DNA of 64,000 bases from Candidatus Portnoybacteria bacterium. Lineage in GTDB: Bacteria > Patescibacteriota > Minisyncoccia > Portnoybacterales > GWB1-42-6. The notes under the pieces were generated by a model. It saw only the letters and a program-made list of their open reading frames with translations, was not told the DNA's origin and did no database searches. The translations under genes and the position numbers were made by a program. The stretch lies in the NCBI GenBank assembly GCA_016208745.1, contig JACQXN010000020.1:9062-73061 (forward strand), read 5' to 3'. Shown piece by piece: positions 5,098 to 63,205 of the stretch (position 1 is the first letter of the stretch; the number at the start of each line of letters is the position of its first letter).

Positions 5098-8275
<3,178 letters not shown>

Positions 8276-9968: not shown

Positions 9969-9978
9969 TTTTCTTTAA

Positions 9979-10168
9979 GCCACTTTTTGTGCCGACAAAA
10001 AGTGGCCAAAAAACTCTCGCCACGCGTAAAAAATAAAGAAAAATCGGGCTCGCTTCGCTAAATTTGCTATGCCCAGCGCTTCGCGCTGACAACCACAACA
10101 CGCAAATTTTTAACGCTCGGCTCGTCTCGATTTTCTAGTTATTTTTTCGCGATGGCGAATAAATTTTA
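9979..10168 (+). repeat. Copy 1 of a ~190-bp structured intergenic repeat, glyQS to M16 peptidase
   Basis: A 5' hairpin CCACTTTTTGTGCCGACAAAAAGTGG, conserved blocks AAAAAACTCTCGCCA, ATCGGGCTCGCTTCGCTAAATTTGCTATGC and ACGCAAATTTTTAACGCTCGGCTCG, and a variable apical hairpin. Confidence 0.65.
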
Positions 10169-17847: not shown

Positions 17848-17932
17848 TTGTGCAACCGGTAACTTGATCAATCGTTGCACAGTCTATTAAATCTCCCCTA
17901 GCCCCTCCTAAAGGAGGGGAATTACTCCTTAT

Positions 17933-18763
17933 ATGCTTATTGATACTCACGCTCACATTAACTTTATTGCCTACAAAGAAGATGGCGGGGAAGTTATAAA
18001 AAGGGCATTAGAAAATAATACCTGGATAATTAATGTCGGCTCGCAATGGGATACTAGCCGCCGGGCAGTTGAATACGCCAAAAAATATGAAGAAGGCATA
18101 TTTGCGGCTGTGGGCTTGCATCCTATTCATTTAAGAAGCATAAAAATAAAAGAGGAATTTGATGAACAGGAATTATTAGAATTTGAAACGCAGGAAGAAA
18201 AATTTGATTATGAAAAATATAAAACATTAGCCAGTGAGTCGGGCGCCATAGCTATAGGCGAAACAGGATTGGACTATTACCGTATTAATGAGGAAGACAA
18301 GGAAAATCAAATAAAACTTCAAAAAGAAAATTTTTTAGCGCATATTAAATTGGCGCAAGAAATTAGCAAACCTTTGATTGTCCATTGCCGCGAGGCGCAT
18401 AACGAGGTTTTGGAAATATTAAAGTCGCAAGTGACAAGTGACAAGTTGCAAGGAGTAATTCATTCTTTCTCGGGCCGGTTGAGCCAGGCAGAGCAATATT
18501 TAGAAATGGGATTTTATTTAGGATTTAATGGTATCATTACTTTTGCGCGGGATTATGATAAAGTAATAAAGGAAATACCGCTTGAGAGAATTTTGGTTGA
18601 AACCGACTGCCCTTATTTAACGCCGATTCCTTTCCGCGGAAAAAGAAACGAGCCTTTATATGTTAAATATGTGGCGGAGAAGATAGCGGAAATAAAAGGA
18701 GTTTCGTTTGATGAGGTGTCAGAAGTGACAACGGATAATGCGAGAGGACTATTCTATATATAA
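17933..18763 (+). CDS. tatD: TatD-family Mg-dependent DNase/hydrolase
   Basis: Contains MLIDTHAHINF, then GLHPIH, and further HS/D motifs. It also contains a heptad-like duplication, (CAAGTGA)x2. Confidence 0.85.
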   Translation: MLIDTHAHINFIAYKEDGGEVIKRALENNTWIINVGSQWDTSRRAVEYAKKYEEGIFAAVGLHPIHLRSIKIKEEFDEQELLEFETQEEKFDYEKYKTLASESGAIAIGETGLDYYRINEEDKENQIKLQKENFLAHIKLAQEISKPLIVHCREAHNEVLEILKSQVTSDKLQGVIHSFSGRLSQAEQYLEMGFYLGFNGIITFARDYDKVIKEIPLERILVETDCPYLTPIPFRGKRNEPLYVKYVAEKIAEIKGVSFDEVSEVTTDNARGLFYI

Positions 18764-18784
18764 TGCAAATATCATGCGAATCTT

Positions 18785-19180
18785 ATGCAAATGCCGCAAA
18801 TAGATAAGATGATCTATCCGGAATTATCATATAAGGTCTGTGGTCTATGTTTTTATATTCATAACCGACTGGGTCGATATAGGAACGAAAAGCAATATGG
18901 CGATGCACTAGAAGTTGCTTTTGATGAAGCGGGCATCATTCACAAAAGAGAAAAAAGGTTGCCAGCATCTTTTGTCGGAGAGAAAAGCTATAGGAATATA
19001 CCGGACTTTATCATTGAAGATAAGCTGATTGTTGATTTGAAAGCCAAAACCATAATCACAAAAGATGATTATTTCCAGATGAGGCGCTATCTAGTCTCTT
19101 ATAAAAAGAGGCTGGGTCTCATTATTAATTTCCGTCAAAAATATTTGAGACCAAAAAGAATCCTAAATAAATTTGCTTGA
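18785..19180 (+). CDS. GxxExxY family protein
   Basis: 131 aa. The N-terminal region IYPELSYKVCGLCFYIHNRLGRYRNEKQYGDALEVAF is typical of the GxxExxY family, which is often mobile or intron-associated. Confidence 0.65.
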   Translation: MQMPQIDKMIYPELSYKVCGLCFYIHNRLGRYRNEKQYGDALEVAFDEAGIIHKREKRLPASFVGEKSYRNIPDFIIEDKLIVDLKAKTIITKDDYFQMRRYLVSYKKRLGLIINFRQKYLRPKRILNKFA

Positions 19181-19228
19181 TTTATTCGCATCATTTGAAT
19201 ATCATTCGCATTTATTTGAATTATATTT

Positions 19229-19705
19229 ATGCTTGAGATCAAAAAATACGGCGAGCCGATTTTAAGGAAAAAAGCTAAACCGGTTGGAAAAATAGACCCG
19301 GAGATTTTGAAATTGATAGATTATATGATTCAGGCCATGCGGCAGAATCAGGGAGTCGGCGTGGCGGCAAATCAAATTGGCATTGATTTGAGAATCGCGG
19401 TTGTCGACGCGGGCAATGGTTTAAAAATTTTAATTAATCCCGAAATTATTAAAGCAAGGGGAAAAAGCGTTAAGGATGAAGGATGTTTGAGTTTCCCGGG
19501 AATATATTTTAAAATCGCGCGGCCAGAAATCGTGGAAATGAAAACTTTAAATAAAAAAGGCGAGGAGGTTATTTTAAAAGCCCAGGGCTTGGAAGCCCGG
19601 GCTTTTTGTCATGAGATAGACCATTTAAACGGGAAATTAATTATAGACCATTTAAGTTTTTGGCAGAAATTAAAGTTTAAAAAGGGTCGGCTATCTAATC
19701 GTTGA
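19229..19705 (+). CDS. def: Peptide deformylase
   Basis: All three Def motifs are present: GVGVAANQIG, EGCLSFPG and HEIDHLNG. Confidence 0.9.
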   Translation: MLEIKKYGEPILRKKAKPVGKIDPEILKLIDYMIQAMRQNQGVGVAANQIGIDLRIAVVDAGNGLKILINPEIIKARGKSVKDEGCLSFPGIYFKIARPEIVEMKTLNKKGEEVILKAQGLEARAFCHEIDHLNGKLIIDHLSFWQKLKFKKGRLSNR

Positions 19706-21236: not shown

Positions 21237-21365
21237 ATAGTCTTTGGATATAGTAGATCATATTTGAAAAAAAAGCAAAATTGAGGTAGAGTAAAATAAA
21301 AATCCACCCCGACCCTCCTTTTCCAAAGGAGGGGATATTCCTTCTTTCGAAAAAGGGAGGCCAAG

Positions 21366-21488
21366 ATGGATTTGGAATATATGGATAAATATGACCCGAA
21401 AAAAGTAGAGCCCAAATGGCAGAAGTTTTGGGAGGAACATCCCGAGCTTTTTTCAGCCAAAGAAGATTCCAAGGGAAAAAAGGAATAG
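21366..21488 (+). other. leuS: N-terminal 40 codons of leuS, separated from the main ORF by an in-frame TAG at 21486-21488
   Basis: The translation MDLEYMDKYDPKKVEPKWQKFWEEHPELFSAKEDSKGKKE is followed by TAG, then ILDMFPYPSGDG. This is the canonical LeuS N-terminus (YNPKEIExKWQKxW...). Confidence 0.8.
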
Positions 21489-21491
21489 ATT

Positions 21492-23987
21492 TTGGATATG
21501 TTTCCATATCCTTCAGGCGATGGTTTGCATACCGGGCATGTTGAAAGCTATACCGCAACAGATATCATTTCCCGTTATTGGCGTATGAAGGGAAAAAATG
21601 TTTTGCATCCGCAGGGCTTTGACGCTTTTGGTTTGCCGGCAGAAAACTTTGCCATTAAAACAAAGATTCATCCTTCGCAAACCACTCAAAAAGCAATTGC
21701 CACTTTCAAGCAGCAAATGAATATGCTCGGATTTTCCTATGATTGGTCGCGGGAAGTTAATTCGTCTGACCCAAAATATTATAAGTGGACACAATGGTTT
21801 TTTCTTTTACTTTACAAAAATGGTCTGGCATATAGGGGTAAAGCAAAAGTTAATTGGTGCAATTCTTGTCAAACGGTTTTGGCCAACGAACAGGCCGAAG
21901 GCGGAGTTTGCGAGCGATGCGGCAGTCCGGTTGTGCAAAAGGATTTGGAGCAGTGGTTTTTTAAAATTACTGATCTTATTGAATCCAAGGGCGCTACTTC
22001 CGGATTGCTACAGGGTCTTGATAAAATTGACTGGCCAGAATCAACCAAAGCCGGCCAGCGCAACTGGATAGGGAAGTCAGAGGGAGCGCAGTTTAAAATG
22101 GAAATTATAACCAGTACCACCCCGGCCTCCGGCCACCCCTCCTCAGCTGAGGAGGGGACGAAAGGGGAGGTGTTGGATTATATTGAAGTTTTTACAACGC
22201 GATTGGACACGGTTTTTGGGATGACTTTTGCCCTTATCGCTCCGGAACATAAGATTATCAACGAGCTTAAATCGCAAATTGAGAATTGGAGTGAGGTTGA
22301 AAAATATATTGAAGAGGCCAGGAAAAAATCAGAGTTGCAAAGAATTTCTGAAACCAAAGAAAAAACAGGAGTGGAAATAAAAGGCGTAAAAGTTATTAAT
22401 CCTTTTACCGAGCAGGAAATTCCGGTTTTTATTTCCGACTTTGTTTTAGCGCATTATGGAACAGGCGCTGTTATGGCCGTTCCCGGACACGACCAGCGCG
22501 ATTACGAATTTGCTAAAAAATTTAACCTGCCGATTATTGAAGTGATAAAAAGCGAGGACAGAAAATCATCAATTGAAAAGGAGGCATTTATAGAAGATGG
22601 GGTATTGGCTAATTCGCGCGAATACGACAATACAACTTCTGCAAAAGCACGCGAAAAATTAATTGAGTGGATCCAGAAAAATAATCTGGGCGAAAAGAAA
22701 ATTAATTACAAAATGCGCGATTGGTTGGTTTCGCGGCAAAGATATTGGGGCGCGCCAATCCCGATAATTTATTGTCCGCAATGTTGTCATTCCCGCCCCG
22801 CATCGCAGTACGGGGCGAATCTAGAAAACGAAAAATCTGGATCCCGGATCAAGTCCGGGATGACAGAATTTGAAATTACAGAGATTGACGGAAAAAAATA
22901 TGCGATGGTCCCCATTCCAGAAAAAGATTTACCAGTGCTTTTGCCTGATGATGTTGATTTTATGCCGCATGGCGAATCCCCTCTTTCAAAATCAAAAAAA
23001 TTTCACGATGTTTCGTGTCCAAAATGCGGAGAGAAGGCGAAAAGGGAGTCAGACACAATGGACACATTTGTCTGTTCCTCCTGGTATCATTTCCGTTATG
23101 CTGATCCGAAAAACGAAAAAGAATTTGCCAGCAAAGAGAAAATAGAGAAATGGTTGCCAGTTGATTTGTATGTTGGGGGCGCGGAGCATACGGTTTTACA
23201 TCTTTTGTATTCCCGTTTTTTTACCAAGGCCTTGCATAATCTCGGCTACATTGATTTTGACGAGCCGTTTTTAAAAATGCGGCATCAAGGAATAATTTTG
23301 GCTGAAGACGGCCAAAAAATGTCAAAGTCGCTCGGCAATGTTATCAATCCTGATTCGGTGGTGGCACAATATGGCGCCGATGCCTTACGGATGTTTGAAA
23401 TGTTTATGGGGCCGCTGGAAGATGCAAAACCTTGGAATACTAAGGGGATCACCGGGATCTATAGGTTTTTGGAGAAAGCATGGAGGATAAGCTTAAAGTT
23501 TAAAGTTAAAAGTGAAAAGTCAGGGCTAGAAGTTAAAAGTTTAATACATAAAACAATTAAGAAAGTTAGTGAAGACATAGAAAAATTAAAATTTAATACA
23601 GCTATCAGCGCATTAATGGTTTTGCTAAATGAGATTGAAAAAAACGAAGAAATGCCCATCGAGGTTTTTGAAAAGTTTTTAATTCTCCTTTCGCCCTTTG
23701 CGCCGCATATCTCAGAGGAGATTTGGTCACAGTTAGGTCATGAAGAAAGTATTTTTAAAGAAAAATGGCCTGAATATAATCCCGAATTAATTAAAGAAGA
23801 GATAATTGAGTTGATCATTCAGATTAACGGCAAGGTGCGCGATACGATTTCTGTGGCGGTTGATATTTCGGAAACTGACGCTAAAAAACTCGCGCTTGAA
23901 AGCGAGAAGATAAAAAAATATCTTTTGGGCAGAGAGCCAAAGAAAATTATTTTTGTTAAAGAGAAACTAATAAATATTGTATTGTGA
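21492..23987 (+). CDS. leuS: Leucyl-tRNA synthetase main ORF (TTG or ATG restart just after the TAG). It carries at least three in-frame repeat insertions.
   Basis: Contains MFPYPSGDGLHTGH (HIGH), KMSKSLGN, the editing domain and a Zn knuckle CPQC...CPKCG. The insertions are at 22118-22175, 22785-22865 and 23492-23547. Confidence 0.9.
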   Translation: MDMFPYPSGDGLHTGHVESYTATDIISRYWRMKGKNVLHPQGFDAFGLPAENFAIKTKIHPSQTTQKAIATFKQQMNMLGFSYDWSREVNSSDPKYYKWTQWFFLLLYKNGLAYRGKAKVNWCNSCQTVLANEQAEGGVCERCGSPVVQKDLEQWFFKITDLIESKGATSGLLQGLDKIDWPESTKAGQRNWIGKSEGAQFKMEIITSTTPASGHPSSAEEGTKGEVLDYIEVFTTRLDTVFGMTFALIAPEHKIINELKSQIENWSEVEKYIEEARKKSELQRISETKEKTGVEIKGVKVINPFTEQEIPVFISDFVLAHYGTGAVMAVPGHDQRDYEFAKKFNLPIIEVIKSEDRKSSIEKEAFIEDGVLANSREYDNTTSAKAREKLIEWIQKNNLGEKKINYKMRDWLVSRQRYWGAPIPIIYCPQCCHSRPASQYGANLENEKSGSRIKSGMTEFEITEIDGKKYAMVPIPEKDLPVLLPDDVDFMPHGESPLSKSKKFHDVSCPKCGEKAKRESDTMDTFVCSSWYHFRYADPKNEKEFASKEKIEKWLPVDLYVGGAEHTVLHLLYSRFFTKALHNLGYIDFDEPFLKMRHQGIILAEDGQKMSKSLGNVINPDSVVAQYGADALRMFEMFMGPLEDAKPWNTKGITGIYRFLEKAWRISLKFKVKSEKSGLEVKSLIHKTIKKVSEDIEKLKFNTAISALMVLLNEIEKNEEMPIEVFEKFLILLSPFAPHISEEIWSQLGHEESIFKEKWPEYNPELIKEEIIELIIQINGKVRDTISVAVDISETDAKKLALESEKIKKYLLGREPKKIIFVKEKLINIVL
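22785..22865. mobile_element. TGTCATTCCCGC-TIR MITE inserted in-frame (81 bp, 27 codons) inside leuS
   Basis: TGTCATTCCCGCCCCGCATCGCAGTACGGGGCGAATCTAG...ATCTGGATCCCGGATCAAGTCCGGGATGACA encodes the extra segment between CPQCC and EFEITEIDGKKY in the LeuS Zn-knuckle region. Confidence 0.65.
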
Positions 23988-24954: not shown

Positions 24955-25150
24955 GCCGCTTTTTTGGCAGCAAAAAAGCGGCGGAAAAAACTGCGCCCAG
25001 AGCGTAAAAATTTAATAAAATCGGATTCGCCTCGCTAAATTTGCTATCCACAACGCCCCAACCTTACGGTCGGGGCCCCACCACAGCACGCAAATTTTAC
25101 GCTTGGCTCATCGCGATTTTATTAATAAATTTTTCGCTATAGGCGGTGAA
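24955..25150 (+). repeat. Copy 2 of the ~190-bp structured intergenic repeat, tsaC to PAP2
   Basis: Same block order. The 5' hairpin is CCGCTTTTTTGGCAGCAAAAAAGCGG, a different sequence with the same fold. Confidence 0.65.
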
Positions 25151-27810: not shown

Positions 27811-27963
27811 CTACGGAATACAGATAAGTACAGATATACGGATAAAAACAAAATCCACCCCGCCCCTCCTTTAAAAAGGAGGGAGATTCCTCCCTTTGAA
27901 AAAGGGAGGGTAGGAGGGATTTGGATTTAATCTGTATATCTGTAATAAATCCATAATCCGTAG
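27811..27963. mobile_element. MITE-like element. It has roughly 35-bp terminal inverted repeats (CTACGGAATACAGATAAGTACAGATATACGGAT) and a CCTCC-family palindromic core.
   Basis: The left end 27811-27845 and the reverse complement of the right end 27925-27963 match. A second copy with the same TIRs and a different core is at 44658-44858. Confidence 0.6.
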
Positions 27964-27970
27964 AGAAATC

Positions 27971-28867
27971 ATGCAAAATATCGGCAAAGGCCTTCATTCA
28001 TTAATTCCGCCAAAATCAGCTTCCGGCGAAGTTTCTTTTCCGAAAATCTCCCAGCCTCTAAGGTCAAAAAAAGAGAGCGTTTTTAATGTCGAAACGAATA
28101 AAATTAAACCTAATCCCATGCAGCCGCGTCAGGAAATGGACAGAGAAGATTTGCAGGATTTAGCGGAATCAATAAAAGAACACGGCATTTTGCAGCCTTT
28201 GATTGTTACCAAATCTGTCAAGGATTTAGCCAAGGGGCAAGACGTTGAGTATACATTAATTGCCGGCCACAGGCGATGGGAGGCGGCTAAAATGATCGGT
28301 TTGCCGCATGTGCCAGTTATTATCAGGGACTCCACGGAGCAGCAAAAATTAGAATTGGCTTTAGTTGAAAATCTACAAAGGAGCGATCTAAATGGCCTTG
28401 ATAAGGCCAAAGCATTTAAGCGCTTAAGCGAGGAATTTGATTTAACGCATCAGGAAATCGCGCAGAAAGTTGGCAAAAGCCGAGAGCTGGTAACAAATAC
28501 CATCAGGCTTTTAAATCTTCCCCAGGAGATTAAAGATGGAATGATGGCGGGAAAAATTTCCGATGGTCATGCCAGAACCCTAGCTGGCATAAAAAGCCCG
28601 CAAGCGCAGAAGGCGCTTTATGACGAGATTATCAAAAACAATATGAATGTCAGGCAGGTTGAGCAGAGAGTGAGAGAAATTTCCGTTAAAGCTCATAGGC
28701 GGAAAGTATTTTTGGACCCGGAAATTAAAAAAATCGCCGGGGAATTAACGGCGTTTTTGGGAAACAAAACTGAAGTTAGGCGGGCGGGTATTGGCGGGAA
28801 AATAGTTATTGAATTTTCAGATAAAGGGGACTTAGAAAAAGTGATTAAAAAGATTTTAAAATCGTAG
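27971..28867 (+). CDS. parB: Chromosome partitioning protein ParB/Spo0J
   Basis: ParB box ILQPLIVTK...GHRRWEAAKMIGLPHVPVIIRD and an HTH region are present. Confidence 0.9.
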   Translation: MQNIGKGLHSLIPPKSASGEVSFPKISQPLRSKKESVFNVETNKIKPNPMQPRQEMDREDLQDLAESIKEHGILQPLIVTKSVKDLAKGQDVEYTLIAGHRRWEAAKMIGLPHVPVIIRDSTEQQKLELALVENLQRSDLNGLDKAKAFKRLSEEFDLTHQEIAQKVGKSRELVTNTIRLLNLPQEIKDGMMAGKISDGHARTLAGIKSPQAQKALYDEIIKNNMNVRQVEQRVREISVKAHRRKVFLDPEIKKIAGELTAFLGNKTEVRRAGIGGKIVIEFSDKGDLEKVIKKILKS

Positions 28868-33557: not shown

Positions 33558-33683
33558 AAATAGTTAGAAGGTTTAAGTTAAAAGTTCAAAGTCAAAGTTG
33601 AAAGTTTAAAATTTATTGCGCAAAGCGCGATGCCAAAATTTTTCATTTTCAACTTTTAATTTTTAACTTAGTTCTTTCGAGAT

Positions 33684-34783: not shown

Positions 34784-34856
34784 TGTCATTCTGGGCCCCT
34801 ACCCGTCCGGCAGACGGGAACCCGCAATCTAGATTCCCGTTTTCACGGGAATGACA
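34784..34856. mobile_element. MITE of the TGTCATTCCCGC-TIR family (REP-like hairpin pair)
   Basis: It starts TGTCATTC and ends GGGAATGACA, with internal hairpins CCCGTCCGGCAGACGGG and TTCCCGTTTTCACGGGAA. Related copies are at 2330-2412, 22785-22865 and 52780-52849. Confidence 0.55.
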
Positions 34857-35577: not shown

Positions 35578-37695
35578 TTATACGTTCTCATAATTTCTAA
35601 CGAGGTCCACCGCTTCATTCAGCATCTGGATATATAGATTAAGCCCCACGGCGTTGATTTGGCCTGATTGTTCGCGGCCCAAGATATTGCCTGCCCCGCG
35701 GATTTCCAAATCGCGCAGAGCGATTTGATAGCCAGAACCAAGCGCTTGCGCTTCTTTTAGCGCGTCTAATCTTTGTTGCGCAATGTCGGTCAGATTTTTT
35801 TCATTATACAAAAAATAGGCATAGGCCTGTTTATCAGAGCGCCCAATTCTGCCTCGCAATTGATAGCTTTGGGCCAGGCCAAGTTTTGTCGCGTTTGCAA
35901 CAATTAGAGTATTAACATTGGGAAAATCCAAGCCGTTTTCAATAATTGTTGTGGCCACTAGAATATCAATCTTTTTTTCGCCAAAATCATCCATCACTTT
36001 TATCAATTGTTTTTCGTTCATGCGGCCGTGAGCAATAGCAATATAAATTTTCCCCCCCTCCTTTTTAAAGCCTGCCTGTCCGGTAGGCAGGGAGGGGTGG
36101 GGTGGATTTTTTGAATTATCTCCATCCGTAGAATAAATCCCTCCCAGCCTCCCTTTAAAAAGGGAGGAGTTTTTTAGTAATTTCTCAATCTGCTTCTTTG
36201 CCAGTTCAATTGTTTCAATCCGATTATGCAGATAATAAATTTGTCCGCCTCGCTTTAATTCAAATTCAATCGCTTTTTTAATTGTTTTTGGTGAATAGGG
36301 TTCAATAAATGTTTTAACTGCCAATCGGCCGGGCGGCGCGGTTTGAATTAAACTGATATCGCGCAAGCCGGTTAAAGATAAATGCATTGTTCTTGGGATA
36401 GGCGTGGCGCTCAAACTTAAAATATCTATGTTGGCGCGCATTTCTTTAAATCGCTCTTTTTGTTTAACGCCAAATCTTTGTTCCTCATCTATTATAACTA
36501 GTCCAAGACTTGGAAACTCTACGTCTTTTTGAATGAGACGATGGGTGCCAATAACAATATCAGTCTGGCTGTCTTTAATTTGTTTTATGGTTTGAGCCTG
36601 ATTCTTTTTTGATTCCAATCTTGAAAGCAGCGCGATATTAATTGGAAATTTTTTAAGCCGGTTTAAAAAATTATGATAATGCTGGTGGGCTAAAATGGTT
36701 GTTGGCGTGATTAAAGCTACCTGTTTGCCAGCAGTTACTGCTTTAAAAGCCGCGCGCAAAGCGATCTCTGTTTTGCCAAAACCAACATCCCCGCAAATTA
36801 ATCTGTCCATTGGTTTTTCCGATTCCATATCTTTTTTAACGTCTCTCATAGCAGACAATTGATCTTCGGTTTCAATATATAAAAAAGAATCTTCCAGCTC
36901 TTTTTGCAAAGCGTCATCTGGCGGAAATTTAAAACCAGAAACTGCTGCGCGCTTGGCATAAATCTCCAATAATTCTTTAGCCAGATTCAAGGCGCTTTCT
37001 TTGATTTTTCTTTTGGTTTTATACCAGAGCGTTCCGCCAAGGCGATGCACAATCGGCGTTTCAAAGCCAATGTATCTGGTTAATTTTTCTTCCAGTTCAA
37101 GCGGCACATAAAGCCGGTCATTTTTGGCGTATTCTAAAACGAAATATTTTTCTTGACTCTCGGGCGTCGGCGAGTTAAAAGAAAGCTCGCCACCTAGTTC
37201 TTTGGCAAAGCCCTTAAAAATGCCAATGCCATGGTCCAGATGAACCAGATATTCATTCGGTTTTAAATTTGCCAGAAGTTGCGAAGGCGCTTGTTTTTTA
37301 AGGGCTTTCTTGATTGTTTCTGGCTTTTCGTCGATTTTAATTTCAAGAGAAAAAATTTCAGCCAGCTCATTGCCGGAAAATTCAAGGCGCAAGGCCGAAT
37401 CCATATTTATCGGAAAAATATCTAAGATCCCGCCGCGTTGGGAGAGCTCGCCGGGTCTAGCCAATGTTTGCACGCGCTCATAACCAAAATTAGTCAGTTT
37501 TCTTAATAGCTCAAATAGATTTATTCTCTGATTTTTTTCTAAAAAGATCGTATTATCCTTCCACCAGATCTGGGTTTTAGCTACTTCTTCTATTTTTTTT
37601 TGGTTTTCGGAGAACCAAAAGATATCCCGATCTAGGAAATACGGCGACAAGCTTGCAATTAGAATTTTAGTTGGATTTTTACTTTCTGATATCAT
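35578..37695 (-). CDS. mfd: Transcription-repair coupling factor Mfd, compact 705-aa form, carrying an in-frame palindromic-repeat insertion
   Basis: UvrB-homology region (ARPGELSQRGGILDIFP), SF2 helicase motifs (GDVGFGKTEIALRA, DEEQRFGV) and the TRG motif. The insertion ...KGRLGGIYSTDGDNSKNPPHPSLPTGQAGFKKEGG... is encoded by a CCTCC-family element at about 36050-36172. Confidence 0.8.
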   Translation of the reverse strand: MISESKNPTKILIASLSPYFLDRDIFWFSENQKKIEEVAKTQIWWKDNTIFLEKNQRINLFELLRKLTNFGYERVQTLARPGELSQRGGILDIFPINMDSALRLEFSGNELAEIFSLEIKIDEKPETIKKALKKQAPSQLLANLKPNEYLVHLDHGIGIFKGFAKELGGELSFNSPTPESQEKYFVLEYAKNDRLYVPLELEEKLTRYIGFETPIVHRLGGTLWYKTKRKIKESALNLAKELLEIYAKRAAVSGFKFPPDDALQKELEDSFLYIETEDQLSAMRDVKKDMESEKPMDRLICGDVGFGKTEIALRAAFKAVTAGKQVALITPTTILAHQHYHNFLNRLKKFPINIALLSRLESKKNQAQTIKQIKDSQTDIVIGTHRLIQKDVEFPSLGLVIIDEEQRFGVKQKERFKEMRANIDILSLSATPIPRTMHLSLTGLRDISLIQTAPPGRLAVKTFIEPYSPKTIKKAIEFELKRGGQIYYLHNRIETIELAKKQIEKLLKNSSLFKGRLGGIYSTDGDNSKNPPHPSLPTGQAGFKKEGGKIYIAIAHGRMNEKQLIKVMDDFGEKKIDILVATTIIENGLDFPNVNTLIVANATKLGLAQSYQLRGRIGRSDKQAYAYFLYNEKNLTDIAQQRLDALKEAQALGSGYQIALRDLEIRGAGNILGREQSGQINAVGLNLYIQMLNEAVDLVRNYENV

Positions 37696-39912: not shown

Positions 39913-40052
39913 AATTTCTAATTGATCTAATTGCTCTAATTAACCTAATCAATACTCAATGCCCAACGGCAAAATTATTAAAAATTTTTAGACATTGGAT
40001 ATTCAAAAAATTGGGATTTGATTAGAAATTAGGAATTAGAAATTAGATATTT

Positions 40053-43231: not shown

Positions 43232-43327
43232 TAAATTAAAAATTAAAATTTAAGAATTAAAAACGACATTTAAAAAATAAAAACAGAAAAATCCTAATTT
43301 TTTACTTTTTCATTTTTACTTTTTAAA

Positions 43328-44657: not shown

Positions 44658-44858
44658 CTACAGAATACAGATTTTATACAGATATACGGATAAATGCCGA
44701 CTGGCGGTTAAGATTACGAGGCTCGTTTTGCCAAGCGGTTAGGTTTTACGTCTTTTTGACGAATGACGCTTGACGCTAAACGATACGAGCTTTGTAACCG
44801 ATAGACGTTAAACGAATGACCAAGTATCTGTATATCTGTACTTATCTGTAATCCGTAG
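44658..44858. mobile_element. Second MITE-like element with the CTACRGAATACAGAT...TIRs and a different internal sequence
   Basis: The left end CTACAGAATACAGATTTTATACAGATATACGGATAAA matches the reverse complement of the right end (GGCTACGGATTACAGATAAGTACAGATATACAGATAC). It shares TIRs with 27811-27963. Confidence 0.55.
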
Positions 44859-44865
44859 CCAGATC

Positions 44866-45216
44866 ATGGCTTGTATTTTTTGCAAAATCGCCAGCAAAGA
44901 AATCCCGGCCGATATTTTATATGAGGACGAATTAGTAGTGGCATTTAAAGATGCTAAACCCATTGCGCCGGTGCATATTTTAGTTATTCCCAAAGAGCAC
45001 ATAGAGAGTGTCGCGGATTTGAAAGATAATCACGAAGTATTAGCTGGCCGAATGATTATGGTTGCCAGGAGATTGGCCGAGGAATTAGGAATTTCAGAAA
45101 ACGGCTACAAATTGCTTTTTAGAGTGAGAAAATATGGTGGCCAAGAAGTGCCGCATATTCATTTGCATCTTTTGGGCGGGGCGAGATTGAGCGAGAATAT
45201 TAAACCAGTAGAATAA
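44866..45216 (+). CDS. HIT-family (histidine triad) nucleotide hydrolase
   Basis: Histidine triad HIHLHLLGG is present, with N-terminus MACIFCKIASKEIPADILYEDE. Confidence 0.9.
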   Translation: MACIFCKIASKEIPADILYEDELVVAFKDAKPIAPVHILVIPKEHIESVADLKDNHEVLAGRMIMVARRLAEELGISENGYKLLFRVRKYGGQEVPHIHLHLLGGARLSENIKPVE

Positions 45217-45585: not shown

Positions 45586-45667
45586 ATTTTCAGCTGCAAG
45601 AAGAAATTAAAAATCAGGCATCAGAATTTTTATTTTTTACTTCTGATTTTTTACTTTTAACTTTTTT

Positions 45668-46159: not shown

Positions 46160-46200
46160 CACTTTTATTTTTCGGCATATCCCTTAGTGAATTTTTTAAA

Positions 46201-46390
46201 CCTACTTTTTGTACCGACAAAAAGTAGGCAAAAAACTCTCGCCAAGCATAAAATTTTGATAAAATCAGACTCGGCTCGCTAAAATTGCTATGCACCCCGC
46301 ATTCTGCGGGGCCCAAAGGCACAGCACGCAATTTTTTAACGCTCGTCTTGCCTCGATTTTATTGCAAAATTTTTGCTATGGCGAAGAGGG
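46201..46390 (+). repeat. Copy 3 of the ~190-bp structured intergenic repeat, yqeY to ybeY
   Basis: Same block order. Hairpin CCTACTTTTTGTACCGACAAAAAGTAGG. The long-stem pairing AAAATTGC/GCAATTTT differs from AAATTTGC/GCAAATTT in copies 1 and 2 in a compensatory way. Confidence 0.65.
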
Positions 46391-48141: not shown

Positions 48142-48437
48142 AATTTTTAATTAACCTAATTATTCTAATTTCTAATCAAATCCCAAAATCCCAATACCTA
48201 ATTTAATTTTAAAACAGGGATATCCGGTATTTTATTAGAAATTGGAATTTGGGAATTATTTAGGTCAATTAGAAATTAGGTTAATTAGAAATTCTCCTCC
48301 TGCCTCTTGACAGCTTTCGCCCTTTTGACCTATCCTGATATAATCTTTACATAAAGAAAAATTTCTCAATTTTTTCAAAATCTTTCCCTTCGACAAGCTC
48401 GGGGCAAACTAAGCCCGGGGTATAATTATAAAATATT

Positions 48438-52749: not shown

Positions 52750-52779
52750 TTTTTGAATTGAATCATAGGCTCTGTTATT

Positions 52780-52849
52780 TGTCATTCCCGCGAAAGCGGG
52801 AATCCAGGCTCTTTTTTGAATCTAGATTCCCGCTTTCGCGGGAATGACA
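52780..52849. mobile_element. MITE of the TGTCATTCCCGC-TIR family (inverted pair of REP-like hairpins)
   Basis: TGTCATTCCCGCGAAAGCGGGAATCCAG...ATCTAGATTCCCGCTTTCGCGGGAATGACA. The two halves are reverse complements of each other. Confidence 0.6.
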
Positions 52850-52923
52850 AGACTGAGTATTATGTAATTCAAGCAGGAAGTTTTTTAAAAACAAAATAAA
52901 ACAAAAACATAAGGAGGCAAAAG

Positions 52924-54162: not shown

Positions 54163-54257
54163 ATAATTATTTCCCCCTTTATAAAAGGGGGATTCAGGGG
54201 GATTTTTAAAATCCCTCCCAGCCTCCTTTTTTCAAGGGAGGAGTAAGAAAACAAATA

Positions 54258-55621: not shown

Positions 55622-55684
55622 CAAAAAGGGGAATAAATCCACCCCACCCCTCCTTTTTCAAAGGAGGGAGTAAAAAAACAAATA

Positions 55685-55768: not shown

Positions 55769-56240
55769 TTGACAGCATTTTACTATTTGCTAAACTAATA
55801 TAACGCCTTAAAAAGGCGCTAAAAAACCATAGATTAAAATTAGAAAACAAAATTAGAATTTAGATTTAAACCACCTACGGAGGGTAGCGAGAATCGTAAT
55901 GCAAGAGCCCGATAAGCTCACACATTACATACTGATTGACTAGAAGGGTGGTTTTTTTATTTTCTCGTCAAAAATTTCAAGTGTTAACGCAGAAATTTTT
56001 GTAACGAGAAAATAACCCCGCATTTATTCTTACCAAAGGGCAAGAAGACCAGTAAACGAAGGCGCAGGTCTCAAGGCCGGAGCCGTTTCGCGCAATAATA
56101 CAGAAATAGATAAACTTGGCTGGAATAAGTGCGGGGTTGAAAACAGAATTTATTGTCCGCATACCCGCCGTCGCCAAGGCTTTGGCGGGCAGGCGCGGGA
56201 GATTCTTCTCCGTCCGCAAATGCGGACGGAGAAGAATGAC
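55769..56240 (+). ncRNA. Copy A of a conserved promoter plus structured non-coding element of unknown class
   Basis: Promoter TTGACA-16-TAAACT, then hairpin H1 (AAACCACC...GGTGGTTT plus T-run), hairpin H2 (16-bp stem), a domain H3 closed by a 15-bp stem ACCCCGCAYTTATTC/GAATAAGTGCGGGGT, and a 17-bp perfect hairpin at 56195-56236. It is homologous to 62808-63205 with compensatory changes. Confidence 0.5.
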
Positions 56241-56548
56241 AGAAGAAAGTTAATCCAAATTTTAACATCCGATTGTTAATCTGGCGCATAGGGGGCGAAG
56301 TTCTATAAATAATTTTTTTATAAATCCCTCCCAACCTCCCCTAAAGGGGAGGAGTAAAAAATTCCCCTCCTTTAGGAGGGGTTAGGGGAGATTTAGTAAA
56401 AGGTCGACATTGCCTGCTTTCCGCTTTTAGCGGTTTTCTGCCAAAAGCAGGGCAGTGAACTAGCACATTTTAAAAATAAAGGCAGAAAACAGATATTAAC
56501 GAATTGCGGATTAACGAATTTTAACGCGTTAGTTCGTTAATTCATAAA

Positions 56549-57412: not shown

Positions 57413-57737
57413 CTATTTTTTGCGAAACGAGCAGGAGAAGCTTTCGGGCTTCTCCTCTCGGATAAGCTCTTAATTTATTTCCCCCTTTTTAAAGGGGGAT
57501 AAAGGGGGATTTAAAAAGACAAATCTAAATCCACCCCTCCCCTCCTTTAAAAAGGAGGGGAGGAATATCGATTGATAGCTTATGCGAGGGAAAAATGCCA
57601 GAATTTCTAATTACTCCGCCCAAGGCGGATCCGCCTCTGGCGGATAATTCAATCCCAATGCCCAATGTCAAGATTTAAAAATTAGACATTTGGGAACTAA
57701 ATATTTTATTGGAAATTAGGAATTATTTAAGAAATTT

Positions 57738-61349: not shown

Positions 61350-61691
61350 TTTTTTGAGGCTGAGTTTGTCTAATAATAACTTGATTAGCCACAAATCCTC
61401 CCTCGCCTCGCTTAAGCTCCGGCGAAGCGGGCCAGCCCTCCCCCGTATCAAGTACGGGGCAAGCTCTAAAGGGAGGGAGCAGGGATTATTCCCCTCCTTT
61501 AGGAGGGGTTAGGGGAGATTTAGATTGGTGTAAGAGTTAATTAATTTCAGGAACCATCGCAGATTACATTATTATTCATTAAACCCTAGGCTATTATTTG
61601 TTTGACAGGATTCCTTGAGGCGGTAAAATGATAAATAAACATCGCTTTTTTTGCAGCGGGCGAGTTTTAATAATTATTAAAACTATAAAAA

Positions 61692-62807: not shown

Positions 62808-63205
62808 TTGACGCTGTTTTTTTGTTTGGTTAAACTGATATAACGGGCTGGAAAAAGCGAGATTTTTTTCATCTGAAATTAATCTTTGTTATTTTAGAAT
62901 GCGATTGGGACATGATTATTTTATTTTAATTTTTTCAATTAGTTAAAAAACCACCTAATTATCAATAACTATGCTGAGGGAAAAACCCAAAATTGCATTT
63001 ATAGTTAGCTGAAAAGAAAGGGTGGTTTTTATTTGTTTGTCAAAATTTTAGAACTCGCCGCAGCGAGCGATAAAAATTTTATAACAAACAAATAACCCCG
63101 CACTTATTCTTACCAAAGAGCAAGAATGTCAAAGAACAAAGGCGTAGCCGTTTCGTGCGATAAGACGGAAATAAGAATACTTGGCTGGAATAAGTGCGGG
63201 GTAAC
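62808..63205 (+). ncRNA. Copy B of the conserved promoter plus structured non-coding element
   Basis: Promoter TTGACG-17-TAAACT and H1/H2/H3 homologous to copy A. The H2 stem is TTTGTTTGT/ACAAACAAA where copy A has TTCTCGT/ACGAGAA, a compensatory change. Spurious ORFs are called over it. Confidence 0.5.

What the first reader, a model, noticed from the sequence alone, without database searches (positions are those of the whole stretch)
27811..27963. MITE family with ~35-bp TIRs (CTACGGAATACAGATAAGTACAGATATACGGAT): two copies with different cargo
Copy 1 (27811-27963, between parA and parB) carries the CCTCC palindromic element as its core. Copy 2 (44658-44858, between hisS and the HIT gene) carries an unrelated ~130-bp core with internal ACGAATGAC repeats. 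The ends are nearly identical and inverted. This is a classic non-autonomous transposon signature, yet no transposase is present in the window.
Basis: seen in the sequence. Interest (0 to 1): 0.55.

Follow-up and report, generated by a model that had tools for sequence, protein, structure and literature searches.

The report
Arms-only copies of nuclease cassettes
The two repeats are real, gene-less copies of a small selfish DNA cassette, common in tiny "candidate phyla radiation" bacteria, whose full form carries an uncharacterised nuclease gene and wedges itself exactly between the stop codon of one host gene and the start codon of the next.

Summary
Copy 1 (27811-27963) and copy 2 (44658-44858) share ~34-nt inverted arms. 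Each arm is four copies of the 7-nt word TACRGAT, bounded by CTAC...GTAG.

The family is not limited to these two loci. The arm pattern hit 42 loci in a scan of 185,579 species genomes, about 40 of them in Patescibacteria MAGs, against roughly 1 expected by my own estimate.

It is not a classical MITE. There is no target-site duplication and no DDE transposase. In three other genomes the same arms bracket a ~125-aa GxxExxY (Pfam PDDEXK_3) nuclease gene. Of 80 metagenomic GxxExxY genes, 56 have clear four-word inverted arms.

The window holds one such full cassette (18761-19228), with different words (ATGCRAAT).

Cassettes and mini copies abut the upstream host stop codon. They most often end 5-7 nt before the downstream start codon, and exactly 7 nt in all three window elements.

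One relative genome has empty junctions: 16 nt between parA and parB, 4 nt between hisS and HIT. Other relatives carry different-word elements at the same junctions.

Best reading: non-autonomous derivatives of GxxExxY cassettes. That the nuclease mobilises them is inference. I found no published description.

The parts
27811..27963 (-). Copy 1: 153-nt arms-only element (TACRGAT words). It is inverted relative to the full-cassette orientation: its AAG-spacer end faces upstream.
   Evidence: A similar composite (arms plus CCTCC core, 72-74% identical) sits at another locus in L032.
27811..27844 (+). Copy 1 left arm: C-TACGGAA-TACAGAT-aag-TACAGAT-A-TACGGAT
27845..27926 (.). Copy 1 core: a nested CCTCC/GGAGG double-hairpin palindrome, a member of a separate repeat family that is abundant in the window.
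   Evidence: D4, D7: 92-93% identical to 7626-7712
27930..27963 (-). Copy 1 right arm. It ends in GTAG, 7 nt (AGAAATC) before the parB ATG at 27971.
44658..44858 (+). Copy 2: 201-nt arms-only element, collinear with the full-cassette orientation (TTTA-spacer end upstream, as in L047).
44658..44691 (+). Copy 2 left arm. It starts 13 nt after the last base (44644) of the hisS stop codon.
44692..44825 (.). Copy 2 core: an unrelated hairpin with GACGAAT/GACGCTT-type words. It is probably a decayed nested element and is not a remnant of the nuclease ORF.
   Evidence: blastx found no significant match
44826..44858 (-). Copy 2 right arm. It ends in GTAG, 7 nt (CCAGATC) before the HIT ATG at 44866.
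18761..19228 (+). Full cassette of the same superfamily, between tatD and def. In order: tatD stop TAA at 18761-18763; left arm about 18763-18801 (ATGCRAAT words); GxxExxY/PDDEXK_3 ORF 18785-19180; right arm about 19181-19221; 7 nt; def ATG at 19229.
   Evidence: (NCBI name 'GxxExxY protein', PF13366)

Best explanation
The two loci are non-autonomous, arms-only members of a family of small selfish cassettes that is widespread in Patescibacteria (CPR).

The full cassette is about 460-540 bp. It consists of a ~125-aa GxxExxY (Pfam PDDEXK_3) PD-(D/E)XK nuclease gene bracketed by inverted arms. Each arm is four copies of a 7-nt word; different cassette lineages use different words. Cassettes sit in the sense orientation between two co-directional host genes. 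They abut the upstream stop codon and end a few nucleotides, most often 5-7, before the downstream start codon. They show no promoter or terminator of their own above chance, so they presumably ride on operon transcription.

Shown:
- the family exists;
- the arms share a four-word architecture;
- arms and nuclease gene are linked;
- full and mini copies with identical arms, including a lineage-specific 2-nt extension, co-occur in one genome;
- the elements sit at gene junctions;
- related genomes have filled and empty junctions;
- there is no TSD.

Inferred:
- the nuclease, probably as a multimer, reads the word arrays and cuts at the CTAC/GTAG boundaries;
- arms-only copies are mobilised or maintained in trans;
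- integration uses host repair or recombination without staggered cuts;
- in the mRNA the ~34-bp stem loops the insert out, so host stop and start codons stay close and expression of the downstream gene is preserved.
For: Family exists. The arm pattern hit 42 loci in the genome collection, about 40 of them in Patescibacteria MAGs, against roughly 1 expected by my own arithmetic. About 30 are complete CTAC...GTAG elements of 78-482 nt.

Link to the nuclease gene:
- L017, L004 and L005 carry a GxxExxY gene between TACAGAT-type arms (PF13366 E about 1e-27, TIGR04256 E about 1e-29).
- Of 80 metagenomic GxxExxY loci, 56 have flanking inverted four-word arms scoring above all 20 shuffles by more than 8. 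These include TACAGAT/TACGGAT types (L047, L068).

Full and mini copies in one genome. CAZTBF01 has the full element L017, the minis L034 and L035 with the same GACTAC...GTAGTC ends, and L013, which shares only the left GACTAC end. MHKO01 has the full L005 plus the minis L007 and L043b with TACTAC...GTAGTA ends, and L043a with GTAGTT on the right.

Arms conserved more than cores. Three MHKO01 copies have 100% identical arms, while their cores differ at many positions.

Word changes are concerted. Within one protein clade all eight word copies differ together, TACGAAT versus TACAGAT/TACGGAT.

Placement. In 41 non-redundant cassettes, where a flanking host ORF was detected, the left arm mostly lies -5 to +2 nt from the host stop and the right arm mostly 0-6 nt from the host ATG. 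Flanking host ORFs were sought only on the cassette strand. The distance from arm end to start codon peaks at 5-7 nt (30 of 56).

Filled versus empty junctions:
- parA-parB is 16 nt in L125/L126. It holds this element in the window, a CACNAAT-word mini in L128 and another repeat in L127.
- hisS-HIT is 4 nt in L130. It holds this element in the window and a 66-nt TACGAAT mini in L132.

Homologues of the window cassette's nuclease (66-72% identical) occupy other junctions: nusG/rplK, adk/map and MFS/polX.

The modelled protein has a PD-(D/E)XK fold (pLDDT 86; weak matches to lambda exonuclease, Cas4 and Hjc).
Against: - No biochemical or genetic evidence shows that GxxExxY proteins cut or move DNA. 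The family is listed as function unknown (PMC3424549).
- The only GxxExxY gene in the window has arms with other words, so a cognate for the TACRGAT copies is not shown in this genome.
- The same junctions are occupied in divergent genomes (hydrogenase/hypA, upstream of fba, upstream of pilC, def/fmt). This could reflect long vertical residence rather than frequent movement.
- A 125-aa nuclease core has no obvious separate DNA-reading domain.
- Outside CPR the architecture is not the same. A Treponema copy is flanked by a single 11-12-nt inverted repeat, and a Persicobacter copy by direct word-rich flanks.
- Arms also flank non-nuclease content: rpsB with its promoter in L016, and solo arms upstream of 23S rRNA.
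Confidence: 0.6

Rival explanations
1. Classical MITE. On this reading the element is an internally deleted derivative of a DDE-transposase IS element (for example IS630/Tc1-like, inserting at CTAG and duplicating TA). It would be mobilised in trans by a transposase encoded elsewhere in the genome.
For: The elements are short, have no ORF, carry terminal inverted repeats and variable cores, and occur in several copies per genome. The ends read CTA...TAG, which on its own could be read as a TA duplication inside a CTAG target.
Against: - No direct duplication flanks any complete copy. The bases outside CTAC/GTAG extend the inverted repeat in a lineage-specific way (GA/TC, TA/TA, AG/CT), not as a direct repeat.
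- In sister subfamilies the terminal TAC is simply the first word, as in ATCAACGAAT..., so TA is not a duplicated target.
- Comparing filled and empty parA-parB junctions shows no duplicated bases.
- No transposase-like ORF lies beside solo or paired arms. The gene that shares the arms is PDDEXK_3.
Confidence: 0.07
2. The arms are mobilised by an unidentified host or element enzyme, and the GxxExxY gene is only frequent cargo (for example an addiction or defence-type nuclease). The window copies would still be non-autonomous mobile palindromes, but unrelated in mechanism to the nuclease.
For: - Arms bracket many kinds of content: CCTCC palindromes, other hairpins, rpsB in L016, or nothing at all.
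- Mini copies outnumber full ones among the arm-pattern hits.
- The nuclease is very small.
Against: - The linkage persists across deep divergence of both protein (33-65% identity) and words.
- No other recurrent gene was seen next to the arms.
- Arms are conserved more than cores, which calls for a trans factor. The only candidate consistently encoded in cis is GxxExxY.
Confidence: 0.2
3. The elements are not mobile at all. They are host-selected structural or regulatory palindromes at operon junctions, such as RNase III processing stems, translational-coupling devices or attenuators, inherited vertically.
For: - Placement is exact: next to the stop codon and 5-7 nt before the start codon.
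- The hairpins are very stable.
- The same junctions are occupied in divergent genomes.
- Solo arms lie 189-327 nt upstream of 23S rRNA in three lineages.
Against: - One relative genome has empty 4-nt and 16-nt junctions at both window sites.
- Different word families occupy the same junction.
- Several copies in one genome are close to each other in length and arms.
- Arm mismatches show no bias towards RNA wobble pairs: 34 sense-compatible, 30 antisense-compatible, 146 transversions.
- Uniform words within one arm are not needed for a stem.
- The two window copies lie in opposite orientations.
- No promoter or terminator signal appears above chance.
Confidence: 0.1
4. The similarity between the two loci is chance or low-complexity sequence.
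For: The genome is A+T-rich and full of short repeats.
Against: - The 14-mer gave 5 matches against 0.17 expected, and 0 of 100 shuffles reached 5.
- The arm pattern hit 42 loci elsewhere, with paired inverted partners.
Confidence: 0.01

Closest known systems
Bacterial MITEs such as Neisseria Correia elements (CREE) and enterobacterial RU/ERIC-type small mobile sequences (reviewed in PMC2229807 and PMC3184786; details from my own knowledge)
   Same: They are short (about 80-200 bp), lack an ORF, are bounded by inverted repeats, lie between genes, occur in several copies per genome, form long hairpins when transcribed, and have no adjacent transposase.
   Different: Correia elements duplicate TA and have plain TIRs. 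Here no duplication is seen, each arm is an array of four 7-nt words, the copies sit exactly at stop/start junctions, and a coding partner (a GxxExxY nuclease cassette) shares the arms.
REPIN/RAYT systems (REP doublets mobilised by a domesticated IS200/IS605-type Y1 transposase; from my own knowledge)
   Same: They are inverted doublets with a short spacer, produce no target duplication, are non-autonomous palindromes tied to a small protein gene that is itself flanked by the same repeats, and are kept long term in the genome.
   Different: The associated protein here is PD-(D/E)XK (PF13366), not a Y1/HUH enzyme. The arms are A+T-rich word arrays, not G+C-rich REP hairpins. Many cassette copies and word types exist per lineage, rather than one RAYT per REP family.
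Free-standing homing endonuclease genes of phages (seg/mob genes of T4-like phages) and the PD-(D/E)XK homing endonuclease I-Ssp6803I (from my own knowledge)
   Same: They are small nuclease genes wedged between conserved co-directional genes, with no transposase and no target duplication. The same junction recurs in different genomes.
   Different: Homing endonuclease genes have no flanking inverted arms and leave no arms-only derivatives. Here several copies sit at different junctions within one genome.
23S rRNA intervening sequences that carry a small ORF (S23p four-helix-bundle protein) flanked by inverted repeats cleaved by RNase III (from my own knowledge; compare PMC2672173)
   Same: They have a small ORF bracketed by inverted repeats that form a long stem in the host transcript, and they are tolerated inside an essential transcription unit.
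   Different: The location differs (protein-coding operon junctions, not rRNA helices), the protein family differs, and RNA processing is untested here. Arm mismatches show no RNA-pairing bias.

Membership tests
Classical MITE (derivative of a DDE-transposase IS) | Terminal inverted repeats on a short non-coding element | tested here: met
   The arms are about 34 nt at both ends of both copies.
Classical MITE (derivative of a DDE-transposase IS) | Target-site duplication flanking the element | tested here: not met
   No direct repeat flanks about 30 complete copies. The filled and empty parA-parB junctions show none.
Classical MITE (derivative of a DDE-transposase IS) | A cognate autonomous IS with the same TIRs that encodes a transposase | tested here: not met
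   Elements with the same arms encode only a PDDEXK_3/GxxExxY protein. No transposase ORF lies near solo arms. Whole genomes could not be searched.
Classical MITE (derivative of a DDE-transposase IS) | Several copies per genome and insertion polymorphism | tested here: met
   There are 2 copies in 64 kb here and 4-9 pattern hits in several MAGs. A relative genome has empty junctions.
IS630/Tc1-type MITE (CTAG target, TA duplication) | TA duplication, with TIRs starting inside it | tested here: not met
   The terminal TAC is the first word of the array. Sister families start with AAC and similar words. Flanking bases extend the inverted repeat and do not form a direct repeat.
REPIN/RAYT | Associated gene is a Y1 (HUH) transposase-like RAYT | tested here: not met
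   The associated gene matches PF13366 and TIGR04256 only.
REPIN/RAYT | Inverted doublet of a short repeat, no target duplication, intergenic | tested here: met
   Minimal copies are two arms 6-30 nt apart or directly abutting.
GxxExxY-cassette family (defined here) | Inverted arms, each an array of about four 7-nt words ending in (C)TAC/GTAG(G) | tested here: met
   Both window copies have them. The architecture is the same in 56 of 80 cassettes.
GxxExxY-cassette family (defined here) | Sits between the stop codon and the start codon of co-directional host genes, ending a few nt (most often 5-7) before the ATG | tested here: met
   Copy 1 lies 6 nt after the parA stop and 7 nt before the parB ATG. 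Copy 2 lies 13 nt after the hisS stop and 7 nt before the HIT ATG.
GxxExxY-cassette family (defined here) | Encodes a PDDEXK_3 nuclease between the arms | tested here: not met
   Both copies lack the ORF and hold no remnant of it, so they are non-autonomous members. The full member in the window is 18761-19228.
GxxExxY-cassette family (defined here) | The nuclease recognises and cleaves its own arms | not testable with these tools
   This needs biochemistry or genetics. Only the fold and the linkage are available.
rRNA IVS-type, RNase III-excised element | The stem is processed at RNA level and the element is inserted in rRNA | tested here: inconclusive
   The element is not in rRNA here. Stable stems are predicted, but arm mismatches show no wobble bias. 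Solo arms lie upstream of 23S in 3 MAGs. No RNA data are available.

The most novel reading that the evidence does not exclude
GxxExxY/PDDEXK_3 proteins form a large family of unknown function (6,159 clusters at 50% identity matched the profile). They may be the mobility nucleases of a previously unrecognised class of bacterial mobile element.

On this reading the element is a ~0.5-kb cassette whose ends are arrays of four 7-nt words that co-vary with the protein. It inserts without target duplication exactly between a host stop codon and the next start codon. Its arm stem loops the insert out of the mRNA, so operon expression survives. The arms-only copies in this window would be its MITE equivalents.
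Probability: 0.35. Interest if true: 0.85.

Novelty: new variant of a known kind. Interest (0 to 1): 0.68.

Why it matters
- **A function for an unknown family.** It would give a concrete, testable role to PDDEXK_3/GxxExxY, a widespread protein family listed as function unknown. The test is whether the nuclease acts on the word arrays that flank it.
- **A possible new kind of mobile DNA.** It would describe mobile DNA that lives inside operons of the most gene-dense bacteria known, without a DDE, HUH or serine/tyrosine recombinase.
- **Practical effects on CPR MAGs.** These elements fill many junctions: three consecutive ones in L132 and at least eight in this window. They coincide with contig ends (L001 and L002 both stop inside copy 1), and many GxxExxY proteins sit on contigs of 1-2 kb. 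They may also lead to fused gene calls. Recognising them should improve assembly and annotation.
- **A natural test case for translation.** The exact placement, often 5-7 nt before start codons in a genome that mostly lacks Shine-Dalgarno sites, could show how translation restarts across a large hairpin.

Tried and rejected
- **TA/CTAG (IS630-like) target idea.** Rejected. The flanks extend the inverted repeat instead of repeating directly, and sister families do not start with TA.
- **A conserved 'AGAAATCA' as part of the element.** It follows GTAG in the window, L027 and L037. The empty parA-parB site of L125 already contains AAATCAT, so it is probably host sequence or a weak target preference. 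Unresolved.
- **Transposase next to solo arms.** None was found. The neighbours are rRNA, rpsB and ordinary genes.
- **Cores as decayed nuclease ORFs.** No significant blastx match.
- **Promoter or terminator function.** Nothing above the shuffle expectation.
- **Known RNA family.** Rfam finds only a tRNA in the window.
- **RNA-level selection on the stem.** No wobble bias.
- **Sequence match of the nuclease to a solved structure.** None. The fold search gave only generic PD-(D/E)XK neighbours at E about 1e-3.
- **Literature.** 'GxxExxY' occurs in 3 papers and 'PDDEXK_3/PF13366' in 2. None concerns mobility or flanking repeats. No paper ties CPR bacteria to such elements. One query failed on syntax.
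- **Generality outside CPR.** Only 3 plasmid hits; the two examined had a different flank architecture.
- **Generic word-palindrome detector.** My run on the window was noisy (28 calls against 2-8 in shuffles). I used it only as a pointer and checked the hits by eye.

Full report
**1. The observation**

- Copy 1 runs from 27811 to 27963. It starts 6 nt after the parA stop and ends 7 nt (AGAAATC) before the parB ATG at 27971.
- Copy 2 runs from 44658 to 44858. It starts 13 nt after the hisS stop and ends 7 nt (CCAGATC) before the HIT ATG at 44866.

All four termini read CTACRGAWTAYRGAT-N3-4-TACAGATATACRGAT. Each arm is therefore four copies of the 7-nt word TACRGAT: two adjacent words, a 3-4-nt spacer, then two more words one base apart.

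The core 14-mer, allowing up to 2 mismatches, occurs 5 times in the window against 0.17 expected, and none of 100 shuffles reached 5. Arm 1L pairs best with 2R (90% over 40 nt) and 1R with 2L (78% over 37 nt). The element thus has two distinguishable ends, and the two copies lie in opposite orientations.

The core of copy 1 is a member of a separate CCTCC/GGAGG double-hairpin family that is abundant in the window (D4-D7). The core of copy 2 is another hairpin with GACGAAT-like words. Both copies fold far more stably than shuffles, with z = -10.0 and -7.7.

**2. The family extends far beyond the window**

I scanned one genome per species for CTACNGANTANNGATN{2,6}ACAGATATAC. This gave 42 loci. 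My own arithmetic for random sequence predicts about 1.4.

About 40 of the loci are in Patescibacteria MAGs (Komeili-, Falkow-, Uhr-, Saccharibacteria and Parcubacteria) or in unclassified small-genome MAGs. The Bacteroidales and Tatumella hits have no partner arm and look like chance.

Orienting each hit and searching for a partner gave about 30 complete elements of 78-482 nt, all bounded by CTAC...GTAG. The smallest are just two arms 6-15 nt apart.

The window itself comes from a Candidatus Portnoybacteria MAG.

**3. No target duplication, and lineage-specific ends**

No complete copy has a direct repeat in its flanks. Instead, the two bases outside CTAC/GTAG extend the inverted repeat in a way typical of each genome:
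- GA...TC in CAZTBF01;
- TA...TA in MHKO01;
- AG...CT in CAYOSD01.

This pattern fits amplification within each genome. It does not fit a TA duplication.

**4. The coding partner**

Two long elements, L017 (482 nt) and L004 (477 nt), carry between TACAGAT-type arms a 125-133-aa ORF. A third, L005, has arm-arm-ORF-arm.

The ORFs match Pfam PF13366 (PDDEXK_3, E about 1e-27) and NCBIfam TIGR04256 (GxxExxY, E about 1e-29).

L017 shares its GACTAC...GTAGTC ends with the minis L034 and L035 of the same genome; L013 shares only the left GACTAC end. L005 shares its TACTAC...GTAGTA ends with the minis L007 and L043b; L043a ends in GTAGTT on the right.

As an independent test I fetched 80 metagenomic loci through the protein alone.
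- In 56 of them the gene is flanked by inverted arms scoring above every one of 20 shuffles by more than 8. Most of the rest show weaker arms.
- The architecture is constant: four words per arm, usually starting with (C)TAC.
- The word differs between lineages: TACGAAT, TACGAAA, TACAAAT, TACTAAT, TACAGAT/TACGGAT (L047, L068), AACGAAT and others.
- Word type follows protein clades only partly. Within one clade all eight word copies differ together, TACGAAT versus TACAGAT/TACGGAT.

That kind of concerted change is more than a stem would require. It points to a factor that reads the words.

**5. The window contains a full cassette**

tblastn found a GxxExxY gene at 18785-19180. It is 33% identical to the L004 protein, and NCBI names it 'GxxExxY protein'.

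It is flanked by inverted arrays of the word ATGCRAAT. The left array starts at the tatD stop codon (18761-18763). The right array ends 7 nt before the def ATG at 19229.

So all three elements in the window end exactly 7 nt before the next start codon.

Homologues of this protein (66-72% identical) sit at other junctions with the same layout: nusG/rplK, adk/map and MFS/polX.

**6. Placement**

In 41 non-redundant cassettes (457-541 nt), where a flanking host ORF was detected:
- the left arm mostly lies -5 to +2 nt from the stop codon of an upstream host ORF;
- the right arm mostly lies 0-6 nt from a downstream start codon.

Flanking host ORFs were sought only on the cassette strand.

Over all detected arm ends that are followed by a gene start, the distance peaks at 5-7 nt (30 of 56).

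Most genes in this window lack a GGAGG-type ribosome-binding site (about 8 of 55). No promoter or terminator pattern above chance lies in or around the two copies.

**7. Filled and empty sites**

I used ParB and HIT homologues to fetch the same junctions from relatives that are 75-80% identical at the protein level.

parA-parB junction:

| Locus | Junction content |
|---|---|
| L125/L126 | 16 nt (TTTTTTAAATCATTCT), empty |
| Window | this element (153 nt) |
| L128/L129 | 86-nt mini element built from CACNAAT words |
| L127 | 209-nt unrelated repeat |

hisS-HIT junction:

| Locus | Junction content |
|---|---|
| L130 (same contig as L125) | 4 nt, empty |
| Window | this element (201 nt) |
| L132 | 66-nt TACGAAT-word mini with abutting arms |
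| L131 | another palindrome |

L132 has mini elements in three consecutive junctions. Comparing filled and empty junctions shows no duplicated bases.

In MHKO01 three 122-nt copies at different loci have 100% identical arms, while their cores differ at many positions.

A composite like copy 1 (arms plus CCTCC core, 72-74% identical over the whole length) lies upstream of rplC in the related MAG JAZDMV01.

**8. What the protein looks like**

A model of the window protein (pLDDT 86, pTM 0.79) has the alpha-beta core of PD-(D/E)XK nucleases. The alignment keeps the D...E-x-K motif.

Foldseek gives only weak, generic neighbours at E about 1e-3 to 1e-1: lambda exonuclease, Cas4, tRNA-splicing endonuclease and Hjc. 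No solved structure matches by sequence.

A profile search finds 6,159 clusters at 50% identity. Many are longer proteins in which the domain is joined to something else, possibly read-through calls with neighbouring genes.

**9. Mechanism: what is shown and what is inferred**

Shown:
- the family exists;
- its arms are four-word arrays;
- arms and nuclease gene are linked;
- full and mini copies with the same arms co-occur in one genome;
- placement at gene junctions is exact;
- related genomes have filled and empty junctions;
- there is no target duplication;
- within a genome, arms are conserved more than cores.

Inferred:
- the GxxExxY nuclease reads the word arrays and cuts at the boundaries;
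- arms-only copies depend on it in trans;
- insertion is completed by host repair or recombination;
- the ~34-bp stem loops the insert out of the operon mRNA, which would explain the strict distances to the stop and start codons.

The stem idea has no direct support. Arm mismatches show no bias towards wobble pairs: 34 sense-compatible, 30 antisense-compatible, 146 transversions.

Three alternatives remain open:
- the nuclease is only cargo;
- the elements are old vertical residents, since the same junction is occupied in divergent genomes;
- the arms have an RNA-processing role, hinted at by solo arms 189-327 nt upstream of 23S rRNA in three lineages and by arms around rpsB in L016.

**10. 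Comparison with known systems**

The copies behave like bacterial MITEs (Correia-type), but they fail the TSD and transposase criteria.

They resemble REPINs in being inverted doublets without TSD tied to a repeat-flanked gene. That gene, however, is PD-(D/E)XK, not a Y1 enzyme.

The full cassette resembles a free-standing homing endonuclease gene in where it sits. Unlike those, it has arms and arms-only derivatives.

The ORF-between-inverted-repeats layout also recalls 23S rRNA intervening sequences.

The literature I could search lists PDDEXK_3 as function unknown (PMC3424549). It contains no description of these arms or of CPR palindromic elements.

**11. Verdict**

I rate it a new variant of a known kind (a small non-autonomous palindromic element). 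There is a substantial chance that the full system is a new class of mobile element.

Noticed in passing
window 18761-19228: A full GxxExxY/PDDEXK_3 cassette lies between tatD and def. It is flanked by inverted arrays of the word ATGCRAAT, and its right arm ends 7 nt before the def ATG.
   Followed up: yes
window 7626-7712, 17885-17929, 21294-21373, 27845-27922, 36129-36175, 54167-54232, 55629-55670, 56320-56398, 57479-57562, 61391-61523: An abundant CCTCC/GGAGG double-hairpin palindrome family. It is also nested inside or next to TACAGAT arms in other CPR MAGs (L032, L008, L028, L021, L039). These are SD-like and anti-SD-like sequences in a genome where most genes lack an SD.
   Followed up: partly
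window 33558-33683; 39913-40052 and 48142-48300; 43232-43327; 45586-45667; 23496-23552: Further intergenic palindromes built from arrays of other short words (AAAGTT, CTAATT, AAAAGT). They look like more arms-only members of the same superfamily, so at least eight such elements lie in 64 kb.
   Followed up: partly
window 52779-52850 and 34829-34856; also L037 7680-7715 and L006: GTCATTCCCGCGAAAGCGGGAATCC palindromes occur in different CPR genomes. From memory they resemble Neisseria dRS3/NIME repeats.
   Followed up: no
window 9970-10160, 46192-46385, 25006-25056; L127 1292-1500: A repeat family of about 200 nt (hairpin plus conserved tail). A relative of it fills the parA-parB spacer in the MAG JAZDMV01.
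   Followed up: no
window 55993-56137 and 63073-63202: Two copies of about 145 nt, 80-83% identical, each ending in AAGTGCGGGGT. They are unexplained and could be a structured RNA or a leader.
   Followed up: no
L015 1376-1703, L019 2515-2704, L026 2385-2670: Solo TACAGAT-type arms lie 189-327 nt upstream of the 23S rRNA 5' end in three different CPR lineages. The loci stop inside the rRNA, so a partner arm downstream could not be checked.
   Followed up: partly
L016 (JAUYIW010000073.1) 190-1402: A TACAGAT arm and a degenerate partner bracket rpsB together with its sigma-70-like promoter (TTGACC-17-TACAAT). Arms can therefore flank host genes.
   Followed up: partly
L060, L063, L064 (flanks of the GxxExxY gene): Tandem arrays of many TACGAAA-type arm units (repeats of ...TTTTTCGTATTTCGTAGTATGGTAAA...) lie beside the nuclease gene, as if arms had been amplified locally.
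   Followed up: no
L132 1523-2394: Three consecutive operon junctions (hisS/HIT, HIT/rpsU, rpsU/yqeY) each hold a mini element with a different word type.
   Followed up: yes
window, all gene starts: Only about 8 of 55 predicted genes have a GGAGG-type Shine-Dalgarno sequence. Most starts are preceded by A/T-rich sequence.
   Followed up: partly
(protein representatives) and L001/L002 ends at window 27880: Many GxxExxY representatives are 270-900 aa, with the domain joined to other sequence, possibly read-through or fused calls with neighbours. Short-read contigs L001 and L002 end inside copy 1, and many GxxExxY hits sit on contigs of 1-2 kb. The elements may fragment assemblies.
   Followed up: no
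L133 (Treponema saccharophilum plasmid pTS1) 1150-1620; L134 (Persicobacter plasmid): Outside CPR, one GxxExxY gene is flanked by a single 11-12-nt inverted repeat (CACACGGATTCG / CGAATCCGTGT) and another by direct word-rich flanks. The four-word arms may be specific to CPR.
   Followed up: partly
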